64,000 nt of DNA, taken from NCBI GenBank assembly GCA_965644265.1, contig OZ286471.1, positions 53,382,001 through 53,446,000 of the forward strand, in the 5' to 3' direction. Within the stretch, counting starts at the first letter, position 1, and every line of letters begins with the position of its first letter. The DNA comes from Glycera tridactyla (lineage: Eukaryota). Positions 3,001-6,000 of the stretch are shown piece after piece. The position numbers were made by a program.

Positions 3001-6000
3001 ATTGGTTATTATCTCTGGCAATAATTGATTATTATATCTGGATATATTTGATATTGAACCCACACTATGCCCTCTTTGAATAATCTCTGGCAGTGATTGA
3101 TTATTATCTCTGGCAGTGATTGATTGCTATCTTTGGAAATAATTGATTATCATCTCTGGCAATAATTGATTATCATATCTGGAAGTGATTGGTTATTATC
3201 TCTAGCAGTAATTAATCATTATCTCTGACAGTAATTGATCATTCATCCCAGATAGTCATTAGACATTGAACTGCCCGATAGCGGATTAGCTGCATGATAC
3301 AATCAGCATGAAATTTTCGAATCCTTTCAAAGTCTTTCTGGAGGTTCTTCTCAGCATATTTGTGTTGATATATTTTGCAGATGGCGTTGATCAACCTCCC
3401 GCATCAGGATCATCTTTTTCATGTAATTGCAATGGGATGTGTGACTCGGTTACTGGAGTATGCAATGGAACCTGCCTGCCGGGATATACTGGCATTGACT
3501 GTCAGACAGGTATGAACCGGCCACAGATATTTCAACATCATCACTCCTGATATTCAGGGAGCTAGGACCCCCTTCAGTATCGCCATCATTGTCACTCTTG
3601 ATGATGCTTTCATGGGAACTCGGTCAATTAGGATAGTTTTTCGTTACAATAAGTCTCGTCAGCACTGGTTGGGTTATATTGAGACATCCAATCAATCGGA
3701 CGGTTTGGTCGGTTGTTTACCATGCACCCCGTGAATGTCATCTGGGCTATATTGAGCCGTTCATACATAAGGCATATGGTTGAATAATTCGAGACTCCTT
3801 CTCGGTTCCAACGGAAGGGCTCGGATGTGCCTCCTTCTGGGACCCCGATGAAAGATGCTTGGTTGGCTCTTAGTTTTACGTCCTGTGGGTACCATCCGGG
3901 ATATATTGAGATTCCCATGCCATGTGACATTCCTACCCCCCCCCCCCCCCCTCCCAAGGATATTTGAAATGGAAAATACACAAAGTGCCATTATGCTAGT
4001 AACTTCTGAGGTGAACATTTTCGGTGATATTTTCATAATAATCTTTTATTCATATTTCATTTATTTATTCATTCATATTTTTTAAATAATTTTTGGTAAT
4101 ATTGAGACTACCGTACAATGGGTATTTTCCCTCATTGACTCATTAACGGACCTTCATATCTATGGAATTCAGGGATATTCGAGATGTCAATTTCTTACCT
4201 GCTCAAAGAGCGTACTAGTTTTCTCCAAGTCATGTTGTACGCAGTCGATCCACTAATATTGTATAAATTACTGTCCGGCCTGTCCCAAGTATACGAGTAT
4301 AGGGAGAACAGATGAAAAAGCATATTACGCAAAATAATCCATCAATGTCAGTCATACAATAATTTGTGTTTTAGTAGAAAATGTTATACATACTTGACCA
4401 CTCCCTAGCTCTACCAATACATTGGATGTAATCGGTGTAAAGTACATCATGAACATTCAGTTACAGAGATACCTCCACCTGGTATGGACCTGATCCGCAT
4501 GCTGACCATTGCTGCCGTGGTGCTGGCTGTTGTAGCCGCTGTGGTCTTCTTTCTCATCGTCTTCATGCTATGGTGCGTAGAATCACGGGGAGACTAAGCC
4601 TCACTGATCCCACCCAGTGCGCGCCGACTGCGTTATCGATGGCTGACCATGTGAATTAGTGTCTATGCAGCATGCACGTGAAAGATTCAACCTTATTTCG
4701 CGAAGAGTAGGAGAAGTTTCCCGACAGGAGTGCTCTATCAGTTAATAGGCATTGAAAAATACCCCCCAGAAAAGAATGAAAAAAATGCATTGACAACTTT
4801 TCTCGAATTCTTTTTCCAAACTAATATTTGTCTAAATTGGGTTTTGGAATCGGCTATAAGTTCACTTTCGAATAATGATGCCTTTGTTGAGGAGTCCTAC
4901 TCAATCAATCCATGAATCACTGATCTCCTGTAATATTACAACGAAACTGGTTCCACAGTTACATTACACACAGTCCCAATCTTACAAGAAGAGTCAATAT
5001 AACGTCACCCGATCATGCGAGATCAGGTGTTACTCTCTACATCGAATAAGAACATTCCATGGACCTGACATGGTCCAATATTGACTTTACCCACAATTGG
5101 GACATAGGCTATAGCACCATCGATCATTTCCCTTCCAGGAAGAGGGGTACCCTCCGACCACGCAGAGAGGCAGATGCAGGTAAGATGATGGTGAGGGTGA
5201 TGTGGTGGTGGTGGCGGCGGCGGCGGCGGTGGCGGCAGCTGCGATGAGTTGTTGTTTGACATCCTTTGGGCAACATCTGGGATATAGTGAGACGTCAGTG
5301 GAATGCACAAAATGACTATCTGTCAGATTCCTGAATTTTCACTTTCTGCAATGGAGAAAAGTTGATAAATCTTGACCGATACCGGCCATGTCTACACCAG
5401 GTCTTTATGAAACTCGACGAAATAAAGCATCCAACCACCACCTCCATACCGCCTCCCCCCCCCCCCCCCCACAAAGTGATGATGATGATGGTGATTATTT
5501 CGAAAATCAATATTTCAACAAATTTTTTCACCAGCTGGTCTCATGTTTCAGTAGGTGGGCTATGTTGAGACGCAATGCTATATTCATACTCACAAAAAAT
5601 CTTGGATTATCTCATGTTCGTGCATTGAGTCAGCCGGGTGCAGCTGGCAACAGAAGCCAAAGAATTGTTTCAGCATTGGGAAAGTATCTTGAAAAAAAGG
5701 GTGATAATGAGCTGATACAAGATAATGATATGAGTTGCATCAGACAGTGATCGCTTTCATCATTGTATCTAGAGAGCCAAGTCAACCAGCCTCCCATTGA
5801 GGCCTCGCCATCTCCCGAGAGGGAGGATGTGGATAACGGGCCGATTCCAGAAGAAGATGAAGCTCCTGATCACGCTCAACCCGAGCCAATCCAACTACAA
5901 CCCGCTGTATATGACAGTGTCTTCGAGTTGCCTATACCTGTTGACGGACTGATGAAATTCATTAATGACTACAAGAAGGACCCCAGAAAATTTGAACAAG

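What the first reader, a model, noticed from the sequence alone, without database searches (positions are those of the whole stretch)
3381..3509. RPTP ectodomain is a single 129-nt phase-1-1 EGF cassette matching the neighbouring MEGF6 exon module, minus one Cys pair
Seen: from the tttgcag acceptor (3380) to the donor (3510) is exactly 129 nt in phase 1-1, like ten exons of the convergent MEGF6 gene. Of the 43 codons, C15, C17, C32, G35, G38 and C41 fall at the same positions as in MEGF6 exon 59508-59636. C23 and C30 are shifted by two residues, and both C2 and C11 are lost. The C-x3-C spacing (GVCNGTC) resembles the atypical MEGF6 repeat GDCLRDC in exon 61403-61589. Known: RPTP-alpha/epsilon have short ectodomains without EGF, and symmetric phase-1 exons are typical shuffling units. 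Inference: an EGF-PTP receptor built by exon shuffling from a MEGF-type gene, possibly signalling with its secreted neighbour.
Basis: partly seen in the sequence, partly recalled or inferred. Interest (0 to 1): 0.65.

Follow-up and report, generated by a model that had tools for sequence, protein, structure and literature searches.

The report
Receptor phosphatase with one EGF knot
This stretch encodes the tiny outer part, probably a signal peptide plus one EGF-like cysteine knot, of an invertebrate receptor tyrosine phosphatase; mollusc genomes carry similar phosphatases, and nothing ties it specifically to the EGF-rich gene next door.

Summary
The letters are as described. AG at 3379-3380 and GT at 3510-3511 bracket 129 nt in phase 1-1, with Cys at residues 15, 17, 21, 28, 32 and 41. 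The convergent neighbour has ten 129-nt phase 1-1 EGF exons.

The reading frame stays open upstream to ATG 3308 and encodes a signal-peptide-like stretch. Chance gives this at 0.18% of positions and at 0 of 16 real neighbour acceptors. The unit is therefore most likely a 202-nt first coding exon, and the 129-nt match is probably coincidence.

Only the last 29 residues are EGF-like. DNA identity to the neighbour's exons is 27-40%, against 47-63% among those exons.

Downstream lie a transmembrane exon and two phosphatase domains; the second looks inactive.

Among the closest phosphatase relatives in public data, 15 of 67 membrane-anchored ones have ectodomains built of EGF units with the same unusual C-x3-C spacing next to the membrane. 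All those I could name are molluscs. The neighbour has that spacing in 1 of 22 units.

A tree of EGF units is unresolved. So an EGF-bearing receptor phosphatase is real, and capture from this neighbour is unsupported. Verdict: a new member of a class that is annotated but little described.

The parts
3308..3509 (+). Most likely first coding exon of the receptor phosphatase (202 nt, ends in phase 1): start codon, signal peptide, short linker and one EGF-like module.
   Evidence: ORF 3290-3547 is open in the exon's frame. A Met-led hydrophobic stretch of this strength upstream of a boundary occurs at 220 of 123112 positions, at 3 of 1665 acceptor-like AG-by-frame cases, and at 0 of 16 neighbour acceptors. 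The donor at 3510 scores 5 of 7.
3308..3385 (+). Predicted signal peptide (about 26 codons). The cleavage site is my inference from the small residues at -3 and -1.
   Evidence: The best 14-residue window has mean Kyte-Doolittle hydropathy 2.63. No signal-peptide predictor was available.
3381..3509 (+).
   Evidence: Pyrimidine fraction upstream of 3381 is 0.59. No transcript data were available to show use of the acceptor.
3422..3502 (+). Six-Cys EGF-like core with spacing C-x-C-x3-C-x6-C-x3-C-x8-C.
   Evidence: 23.8 bits against the neighbour-unit profile. 25.9 bits, ungapped, against a profile of 51 C-x3-C units from 16 phosphatase relatives. Pfam EGF_laminin gives only 15.1 bits against a cut-off of 21. 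PDB by sequence: mastigoneme EGF E 2.7e-4, SCARF1 E 3.8e-3.
3464..3472 (+). N-G-T glycosylation sequon, which fills the C-x3-C insert.
   Evidence: Read from the sequence. The 2-residue gap in all three printed PDB alignments falls within this sequon.
4461..4572 (+). Transmembrane exon. Acceptors at 4443, 4461 or 4467 are all phase 1 and all weak; the donor is at 4573.
   Evidence: Sequence and frame. Hydrophobic run in ORF 4409-4594. Acceptor pyrimidine fractions are 0.41-0.53. Donor.
5777..6008 (+). Juxtamembrane exon (start 5777 or 5822) leading into the first phosphatase domain.
   Evidence: Frame-keeping junctions. No Pfam family matched.
6659..17357 (+). First phosphatase domain (D1) in eight exons: 6659-6746, 7644-7714, 11939-11993, 12417-12514, 12996-13118, 15064-15209 (WPD loop), 16229-16364 (catalytic loop) and 17208-17357.
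   Evidence: Pfam Y_phosphatase hit 5 of the 7 exon ORFs tested between 5751 and 16373, at 22.6-50 bits; 5751-6077 and 6608-6748 gave nothing. Junctions. In the PDB the WPD exon is closest to PTPRS/LAR. Masked runs at 6761-6956 and 13408-13771 lie in introns of this model and were left as they are.
19366..25208 (+). Second phosphatase domain (D2). ORF-level pieces at about 19366-19569, 21581-21814, 22265-22456, 23300-23450, 23777-23932, 24479-24637 and 24846-25208. Likely inactive.
   Evidence: ORFs and tblastn to relatives. In the ORF translations WPN stands where WPD is expected and no Arg closes the catalytic loop. Exact splice sites were not worked out.
39108..63665 (-). Convergent neighbour: a multi-EGF (MEGF-type) gene with at least 22 EGF units, ten of them in 129-nt phase 1-1 exons. 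Both ends are unresolved.
   Evidence: Pfam EGF_laminin is above its cut-off for all three single-unit exons tested, at 21.7-28.0 bits.
61410..61472 (-). The only C-x3-C unit in the neighbour (1 of 22).

Best explanation
Interval 3381-3509 is the 3' part of the first coding exon (3308-3509) of a type I receptor tyrosine phosphatase.

The exon encodes a signal peptide, a short Ser/Pro-rich linker and a single six-Cys EGF-like knot of the MEGF/SCARF/tenascin sort. The knot carries a C-x3-C insert that holds an N-glycosylation sequon. The next exon, also entered in phase 1, gives a Pro-rich stalk and the membrane span. After that come an apparently active D1 domain and an apparently inactive D2 domain.

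Inferred function: a membrane phosphatase with a minimal, glycosylated ectodomain. It would be regulated largely from inside the cell, as RPTP-alpha and -epsilon are, with the EGF knot as a small contact or dimerisation surface.

The gene is a one-unit member, or at least a close analogue, of a class of EGF-repeat receptor phosphatases annotated in mollusc genomes. In that class the membrane-proximal unit has the same C-x3-C spacing.

The equal length of 129 nt with the neighbour's exons is most likely coincidence. No specific tie to the neighbour is shown.

Shown: the sequence features, the phosphatase domains, the statistics of the upstream frame, and the existence of EGF-type relatives. Inferred: use of ATG 3308, signal cleavage, glycosylation, activity of D1 and inactivity of D2, and common descent with the mollusc class.
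For: - The open frame from ATG 3308 has a hydrophobic core of hydropathy 2.63. Chance gives this at 220 of 123112 positions, at 3 of 1665 acceptor-like AG-by-frame cases, and at 0 of 16 neighbour acceptors.
- No convincing signal-peptide exon lies in 1-3300. The one candidate, 233-338, owes its hydrophobic part to a GGTT microsatellite.
- The transmembrane exon can be entered in phase 1.
- Pfam Y_phosphatase hits 5 of the 7 exon ORFs tested between 5751 and 16373, and the junctions keep the frame.
- The WPD-exon search gave 2427 proteins at E<=1e-3. Of the best 150, 67 have a membrane span upstream of the phosphatase domain. Of those, 15 have at least one C-x3-C EGF unit, 49 such units in all.
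- Eight of them (P0002, P0007, P0024, P0037, P0108, P0116, P0123, P0143) end the ectodomain with a C-x3-C unit just before the membrane, as here.
- The named ones come from Littorina, Potamilus, Sinanodonta, Solemya, Saccostrea, Mercenaria, Mya, Liolophura and Mactra.
- The neighbour has C-x3-C in 1 of 22 units.
- Pfam scores the window's EGF below its cut-off. It also reports no EGF family at E<=0.01 for two of the three mollusc EGF-type phosphatases tested (P0159, P0153); the third, P0002, gets only EGF_TEN at 18.8 bits against a cut-off of 65. The neighbour's single units pass.
- DNA identity to the neighbour's exons is 27-40%, against 47-63% among those exons.
Against: - No transcript evidence exists for either exon start.
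- The AG at 3380 is a plausible acceptor, and exact equality with 129 nt is a coincidence that I explain only as chance.
- In the EGF-core tree the window's unit is nearest to neighbour units. The best is NB_62777, at 60% identity over 25 columns.
- The score against the C-x3-C profile (25.9 bits) barely exceeds that against the neighbour profile (23.8 bits).
- Phosphatase-domain kinship with the mollusc EGF class is not established. Per exon, 0-4 of the top 10 are EGF-type. With summed scores, EGF-type proteins take ranks 1, 3, 4 and 5 of 78, but permutation gives p 0.057 and Mann-Whitney p 0.51.
- No orthologue of the first exon was found.
- The best single-unit example in public data (Mya arenaria P0159) lacks the last Cys. 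P0007 looks like a truncated form of a longer protein.
- Upstream exons outside the window, or inside the masked runs 402-531 and 1795-2155, cannot be excluded.
Confidence: 0.6

Rival explanations
1. Interval 3381-3509 is a free-standing 129-nt phase 1-1 exon copied from the neighbouring MEGF-type gene and inserted into a short-ectodomain receptor phosphatase. The two products may interact.
For: - Exact 129 nt between AG and GT, in the same phase as ten neighbour exons.
- 23.8 bits against the neighbour-unit profile, with 0 of 1000 shuffles above 12.9 bits.
- The nearest rows in the EGF tree are neighbour units.
- One clade of neighbour units plus the window's unit is not rejected (p-AU 0.638).
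- The neighbour has one C-x3-C unit.
Against: - The upstream frame carries a start codon and a signal-peptide-like stretch.
- The first 12 residues match nothing in the unit.
- DNA identity is 27-40% overall and 10-31% in the first 42 nt.
- Protein local scores are well below those among the neighbour's own units.
- The tree constrained to put the window's unit with the phosphatase-family units is also not rejected, and its likelihood gain is larger (+16.75 against +6.19).
- EGF-type receptor phosphatases exist in many molluscs.
Confidence: 0.07
2. Interval 3381-3509 is a true internal exon, the last EGF exon of a longer multi-EGF receptor phosphatase. Its upstream exons lie outside the window or in masked sequence, and the signal-peptide-like frame is chance.
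For: - Most EGF-type relatives have 3 to 15 units.
- The AG at 3380 is usable.
- Only 3.3 kb lies upstream in the window, 491 nt of it masked.
- Introns of this gene reach about 4 kb.
Against: - Chance gives such an upstream frame at only 0.18% of positions.
- The exon's N-terminal third lacks the C-x8-C loop that internal units carry in the relatives.
- No plus-strand ORF of 30 residues or more upstream of 3290 matched the C-x-C EGF pattern. That pattern would miss a C-x3-C unit.
Confidence: 0.15
3. The Cys pattern is not a folded EGF-like domain. It is a short Cys-rich stalk that resembles EGF by composition only.
For: - Pfam is below its cut-off (15.1 bits against 21).
- The AlphaFold model has mean pLDDT 66.
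- Foldseek against the PDB found nothing at E<=10.
Against: - Two independent profiles give 23.8 and 25.9 bits, against shuffle maxima of 12.9 and 13.5 bits.
- PDB sequence matches to EGF modules of mastigoneme proteins and SCARF1 span the whole core.
- The model shows the two-strand hairpin that I expect for EGF; that expectation is recalled, not tested.
Confidence: 0.04

Closest known systems
EGF-repeat receptor tyrosine phosphatases annotated in mollusc genomes. Examples: Littorina saxatilis XP_070194747.1 ('epsilon-like'), Potamilus streckersoni KAK3591264.1, Solemya velum KAL5016638.1, Saccostrea echinata XP_061182027.1 ('kappa-like'), Mya arenaria XP_052764503.1 ('draper-like') and XP_052805469.1 ('S-like').
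   Same: Type I layout: a Cys-rich EGF-type ectodomain, one membrane span, then phosphatase domains (two in P0153 and P0159, three Pfam stretches in P0002). The membrane-proximal unit ends with a C-x3-C unit just before the stalk. Pfam's EGF models largely miss these units.
   Different: They mostly carry 3 to 15 or more full units, each with an extra N-terminal C-x8-C loop. The window's gene shows one unit without that loop. Its insert reads N-G-T, whereas theirs usually has Gly just before the second Cys. Phosphatase exons are only about 45-60% identical, and common descent is not shown.
RPTP-alpha and RPTP-epsilon (vertebrate subtype R4)
   Same: Very short ectodomain, likely glycosylated, followed by tandem D1-D2 domains. 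Automatic annotation calls several mollusc relatives 'epsilon-like'.
   Different: The WPD exon scores higher against PTPRS/LAR (E 3e-21 to 5e-20) than against epsilon (1e-15) or alpha (4e-14).
MEGF10/11, Draper, SCARF and PEAR1-type EGF repeats, including the window's neighbour
   Same: The core pattern through the conserved D-x-x-T-G stretch and the G-aromatic-x-G-x-x-C tail.
   Different: The loop after the C-x-C is 2 residues shorter, and C-x3-C replaces C-x-C. There is no N-terminal C-x8-C loop. There is one copy, not a tandem array. It is probably not a separate exon.

Membership tests
Classical receptor-type protein tyrosine phosphatase (tandem-domain) | Y_phosphatase domain with WPD loop and CX5R catalytic loop in D1 | tested here: met
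   Pfam Y_phosphatase hit 5 of the 7 exon ORFs tested between 5751 and 16373, at 22.6-50 bits. WPD lies in ORF 14995-15210. The catalytic signature is split between exons 15064-15209 and 16229-16364. PDB matches reach E 3e-21.
Classical receptor-type protein tyrosine phosphatase (tandem-domain) | Signal peptide, single membrane span and a second phosphatase domain | tested here: met
   Hydrophobic N-terminus from ATG 3308. Hydrophobic run in the exon ending at 4572. D2 pieces at 19366-25208 match the D2 of relatives by tblastn. The signal peptide rests on hydropathy only; no dedicated predictor was available.
EGF-like domain (Pfam EGF_laminin, EGF_2, EGF_Teneurin) | Score at or above the curated gathering threshold | tested here: not met
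   EGF_laminin 15.1 bits (cut-off 21), EGF_Teneurin 12.8 (24.3), EGF_2 11.9 (22.1). The neighbour's single units pass, at 21.7-28.0 bits.
EGF-like domain (Pfam EGF_laminin, EGF_2, EGF_Teneurin) | Six Cys in EGF order, with the G-aromatic-x-G-x-x-C tail and a beta-hairpin fold | tested here: inconclusive
   The pattern is present. Profiles give 23.8 and 25.9 bits, above all 1000 shuffles each. The AlphaFold model has pLDDT 66 with two strands. Foldseek found no match. Disulfide pairing cannot be tested here.
MEGF-type 43-residue, 8-Cys exon unit (as in the neighbour) | N-terminal C-x8-C loop and C-x-C before the tail, encoded by a separate 129-nt phase 1-1 exon | tested here: not met
   No Cys occurs in the first 14 residues, and the spacing is C-x3-C. 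The frame continues upstream to a start codon. The length and flanking AG/GT do match.
Mollusc-type EGF-repeat receptor phosphatases | Membrane-proximal EGF unit with C-x3-C spacing directly before the stalk and membrane span | tested here: met
   The window's unit ends 7 nt before the donor at 3510, and the next coding exon starts the stalk and span. The same arrangement occurs in 8 relatives.
Mollusc-type EGF-repeat receptor phosphatases | Phosphatase domains forming one clade with those proteins | tested here: inconclusive
   Exon-by-exon ranks: 0-4 EGF-type proteins in each top 10. Summed scores: ranks 1, 3, 4 and 5 of 78, permutation p 0.057, Mann-Whitney p 0.51. No tree of the joined domain was made, because the spliced sequence was not assembled.
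RPTP subtype R4 (alpha/epsilon) | Phosphatase domains closest to alpha/epsilon | tested here: not met
   For the one exon tested, PTPRS and LAR score better than epsilon and alpha.

The most novel reading that the evidence does not exclude
Receptor phosphatases whose ectodomain is built from a C-x3-C variant of the MEGF/Draper-type EGF unit form a coherent subtype that has not been described in print. Standard domain models largely miss the unit. Copy number runs from one (this gene) to fifteen or more. The subtype reaches beyond the molluscs in which I could name it. Such receptors could pair a Draper/MEGF10-like recognition surface with phosphatase output, acting as the counterpart of tyrosine-phosphorylated engulfment or adhesion receptors of the MEGF type, possibly including the neighbour.
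Probability: 0.2. Interest if true: 0.55.

Novelty: new member of a known kind. Interest (0 to 1): 0.3.

Why it matters
The textbook receptor phosphatase subtypes do not include an EGF-type ectodomain. This window and the mollusc proteins found here show that such receptors exist. They also show that Pfam's EGF models largely miss their repeat unit, so automatic names such as 'epsilon-like', 'kappa-like' or 'draper-like' hide the class.

A one-unit member would be a convenient minimal construct for asking what the EGF unit binds.

For the scan itself there is a lesson. An AG inside the T-rich coding sequence of a signal peptide can mimic an acceptor and create a false 'symmetric cassette'.

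Tried and rejected
- **Word-based protein searches.** The WPD exon (longer proteins), the first exon (longer proteins) and the first exon (similar length) found no scoring hit in any of the three runs.
- **ESM Atlas** with the first exon gave only generic EGF-like clusters, best score 0.87. This is a lead only.
- **Structure.** AlphaFold on the 42 residues gave pLDDT 66. Foldseek against the PDB gave 0 matches at E<=10.
- **Phosphatase kinship** by per-exon ranks and summed scores was inconclusive.
- **EGF-core tree** of 74 units by 33 columns gave no supported placement. Both constrained trees were accepted.
- **Upstream signal exon.** A scan of 1-3300 found only a candidate derived from a microsatellite.
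- **3' end of the neighbour and intron ORFs.** A scan for a membrane span in the neighbour and Pfam on ten intron or intergenic ORFs gave nothing.
- **Cluster look-ups** of the ten closest short fragments (56-69% identity) returned unnamed single-member clusters. I did not trace them further.
- **Literature.** Five full-text searches found no paper describing EGF-type receptor phosphatases. For these I saw listings and abstracts only. In PMC5336234 I read passages; it treats the R3 subtype only. The sea urchin phosphatase survey (PMC3045532) is not held. Supplementary files were not consulted.
- **Genome contigs** was not used, because it holds only bacteria and archaea.
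Full report
**Scope and limits.** I do not take this window for human. Its phosphatase gene has an EGF-type ectodomain. Its closest public relatives are invertebrate, mostly mollusc, proteins at about 45-60% identity per exon. The window holds seven masked N runs, 1565 N in all. I left them as they are. Where a whole-gene view was wanted I summed per-exon scores. 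That is the reason there is no tree of the complete phosphatase domains.

**The observation.** AG at 3379-3380 and GT at 3510-3511 bracket exactly 129 nt. In phase 1 the 42 whole codons put Cys at residues 15, 17, 21, 28, 32 and 41, and Gly at 35 and 38. On the minus strand, from about 39108 to 63665, lies a multi-EGF gene. A simple splice-site model gives it ten 129-nt phase 1-1 exons, at the coordinates listed under the observation check. A profile of the ten 42-residue units scores the window's exon at 23.8 bits, and none of 1000 shuffles exceeds 12.9 bits. The described letters are therefore real, and the likeness is above chance.

**What the observation misses.** Two points weaken it.
- The profile aligns only residues 13-41 and needs a two-residue insert. 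The first 12 residues match nothing in the unit.
- The reading frame does not stop at the proposed acceptor. ORF 3290-3547 is open in the same frame. From ATG 3308 it encodes a basic start, a hydrophobic core (best 14-residue hydropathy 2.63) and small residues just before the EGF part.

I measured how often such a Met-led, open, equally hydrophobic stretch of 15-35 residues sits upstream of a boundary:
- 220 of 123112 positions on both strands (0.18%);
- 3 of 1665 acceptor-like AGs counted in all three frames;
- 0 of 16 acceptors of the neighbour's EGF exons.

The pyrimidine tract before 3381 scores 0.59. Every acceptor my model accepted in the neighbour scored 0.65 or more. No convincing signal-peptide exon lies in the 3.3 kb upstream. 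The single candidate, 233-338, owes its hydrophobic part to a GGTT microsatellite.

The most economical reading is a first coding exon 3308-3509 of 202 nt that ends in phase 1. The 129-nt figure is then a coincidence created by an AG inside T-rich signal-peptide codons. I cannot prove this without transcripts. Exons further upstream, outside the window or in the masked runs 402-531 and 1795-2155, remain possible.

**The gene.**
- *Membrane span.* The next coding exon can be entered in phase 1 at 4443, 4461 or 4467. All three acceptors are weak (0.41-0.53). It encodes a Pro-rich stalk and a membrane span and ends at 4572.
- *Juxtamembrane exon.* It starts at 5777 or 5822 and ends at 6008.
- *D1.* Its eight exons are listed under parts. 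Their junctions keep the frame.
- *Pfam.* Y_phosphatase matches five of the seven exon ORFs tested between 5751 and 16373, at 22.6-50 bits. ORFs 5751-6077 and 6608-6748 gave no family. One D2 frame scored 14 bits, below the cut-off.
- *Closest solved structures.* The WPD exon is closest to PTPRS and LAR (E 3e-21 to 5e-20). Epsilon (1e-15) and alpha (4e-14) follow.
- *D2.* D2 pieces run from about 19366 to 25208. In their open-frame translations WPN replaces WPD and no Arg closes the catalytic loop. I infer an inactive D2, as in many tandem receptor phosphatases.

The visible mature ectodomain is therefore only some 55-60 residues: a Ser/Pro-rich linker, one six-Cys knot with an N-G-T sequon, and a stalk.

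**What kind of EGF it is.**
- Pfam puts it below threshold: EGF_laminin 15.1 bits (cut-off 21), EGF_Teneurin 12.8, EGF_2 11.9.
- The best PDB sequence matches are EGF modules of mastigoneme proteins (E 2.7e-4) and human SCARF1 (E 3.8e-3). All three printed alignments open a two-residue gap within the N-G-T that fills the C-x3-C.
- The Atlas lists generic EGF clusters, best score 0.87, which is a lead only.
- A single-sequence AlphaFold model has pLDDT 66 with a two-strand hairpin. Foldseek against the PDB returned nothing.
- In the Pfam EGF_laminin alignments of the neighbour's units the domain begins at residue 14, not residue 1. From general knowledge of laminin-type EGF, I read the first two Cys of each 43-residue exon as the extra loop of the preceding domain. 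On that reading the six Cys here form a whole EGF core, not a unit that lost a pair.

**Link to the neighbour.**
- Ungapped DNA identity between 3381-3509 and the ten neighbour exons is 27-40%, and 10-31% over the first 42 nt. Among the neighbour's exons it is 47-63%.
- Protein local scores are 59-73, against 90-157 among the neighbour's units.
- There is no trace of a recent copy.

**Relatives elsewhere.** Three word-based searches found nothing. An exhaustive HMMER search with the WPD-exon frame found 2427 proteins at E<=1e-3.
- Of the best 150, 67 have a membrane span upstream of the phosphatase domain.
- Of those 67, 15 carry at least one EGF tail with C-x3-C spacing (49 tails in all) and 9 carry C-x-C tails (17 in all).
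- In eight proteins the ectodomain ends with a C-x3-C unit just before the stalk and span, as in the window.
- The named ones are all molluscs: Littorina saxatilis, Nucella, Potamilus, Sinanodonta, Solemya velum, Saccostrea echinata, Mercenaria, Mya arenaria, Liolophura sinensis and Mactra antiquata. Their automatic names include 'epsilon-like', 'kappa-like', 'S-like' and 'draper-like'.
- Unit numbers run to 15 or more.
- One Mya arenaria isoform (P0159, 739 aa) has a signal peptide, one incomplete Cys-rich unit, a span and two phosphatase domains.
- Pfam reports no EGF family at E<=0.01 for P0159 and P0153. For P0002 it reports only a far sub-threshold EGF_TEN hit. The neighbour's single units all pass EGF_laminin.
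- A profile of 51 C-x3-C units from 16 of these proteins scores the window's exon at 25.9 bits without gaps; the shuffle maximum is 13.5 bits.

The window's EGF thus shares three things with this class: the rare spacing, the position next to the membrane, and near-invisibility to Pfam's EGF models.

**Evidence that cuts the other way.**
- The 25.9 bits are barely above the 23.8 bits against the neighbour profile.
- In a maximum-likelihood tree of 74 EGF cores over 33 columns, the window's unit lies nearest to neighbour units. The closest is the unit at 62777, at 60% identity over 25 columns. No branch there has support.
- AU tests reject neither constraint. Neighbour units plus window gives p 0.638, with log-likelihood 6.19 above the free search. 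Phosphatase-family units plus window gives p 0.808, with 16.75 above. The module is too short to place.
- Kinship of the phosphatase domains with the mollusc class is also unproven. Per exon, 0 to 4 of the top ten are EGF-type, when about 1.4 is expected. With scores summed over all exons except the one used for selection, EGF-type proteins hold ranks 1, 3, 4 and 5 of 78. Permutation nevertheless gives p 0.057 and a rank test p 0.51.
- Convergent capture of EGF units by different phosphatase lineages is therefore not excluded.

**Mechanism, as far as it can be inferred.** The product is a type I membrane phosphatase. D1 has the catalytic motifs and D2 looks like a pseudo-phosphatase. Its very small ectodomain is probably N- and O-glycosylated and resembles RPTP-alpha and -epsilon in size. 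On that analogy, regulation would come mainly from dimerisation and the intracellular domains, with the EGF knot as a minimal contact surface. That EGF-type ectodomains engage MEGF/Draper-type partners is speculation; I ran no binding prediction and claim none. Whether the neighbour is secreted, as MEGF6 is, or membrane-bound is open, because its 3' end was not resolved.

**Novelty.** Five full-text searches found no paper describing receptor phosphatases with EGF-type ectodomains (listings and abstracts seen). The one paper I read passages of (PMC5336234) covers the R3 subtype only. The sea urchin phosphatase survey is not held. Supplements were not seen and might list such genes. The class is nevertheless present in public annotation, so I file this as a new member of a known kind.

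Noticed in passing
window 2842-3243: A 23-nt tandem array (about 16 copies, nested in a 210-nt higher-order repeat) ends about 65 nt upstream of ATG 3308, where a promoter or 5' UTR would lie.
   Followed up: no
window 23777-24637 (+): In the open-frame translations of D2, WPN stands for WPD and no Arg closes the catalytic loop. This suggests a pseudo-phosphatase D2.
   Followed up: partly
window 15034-15063 (+): The frame just upstream of the acceptor at 15064 is open, and its translation resembles the end of the preceding exon (12996-13118). Several PDB alignments extend into it. It may be chance, a slid boundary or an alternative acceptor.
   Followed up: no
window 20264-20353 and 20474-20563; also 20322-20460 and 20532-20670 (+): Identical open frames recur 210 nt apart in the intron between D1 and D2, which points to a tandem duplication of about 210 nt.
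   Followed up: no
window 300-345, 1747-1793, 12540-12790, 13200-13400, 15300-15680, 25400-25800: Four-base microsatellites, or frames that read as such (GGTT and GATG by repeat finder; Cys/Leu/Ser/Val and His/Pro/Ser/Ile runs in translation), are frequent. Several of them abut the masked N runs.
   Followed up: no
window 61410-61472 (-): The neighbour's single C-x3-C EGF unit (1 of 22) lies in an exon that is not 129 nt long. It shows that this spacing can arise within a MEGF-type array.
   Followed up: partly
window 63155-63436 (-): A Thr/Asn/Ile-rich low-complexity open frame lies between two EGF exons of the neighbour. It may be a mucin-like exon or an intronic simple repeat.
   Followed up: no
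proteins P0153, P0159 and P0002 (mollusc relatives): Pfam reports no EGF family at E<=0.01 for P0153 and P0159, and only a far sub-threshold EGF_TEN hit for P0002, although P0153 and P0002 have many Cys-rich EGF-type units and P0159 has one. Automatic domain annotation therefore hides this ectodomain class. By eye, P0153 and P0024 also have a segment between EGF units that looks like a kringle; Pfam did not report one for P0153, and P0024 was not scanned.
   Followed up: partly
window 40285-46829 (-): The neighbour has one intron of about 6.5 kb with several open frames of 60-160 codons. Pfam found nothing in the four tested.
   Followed up: partly
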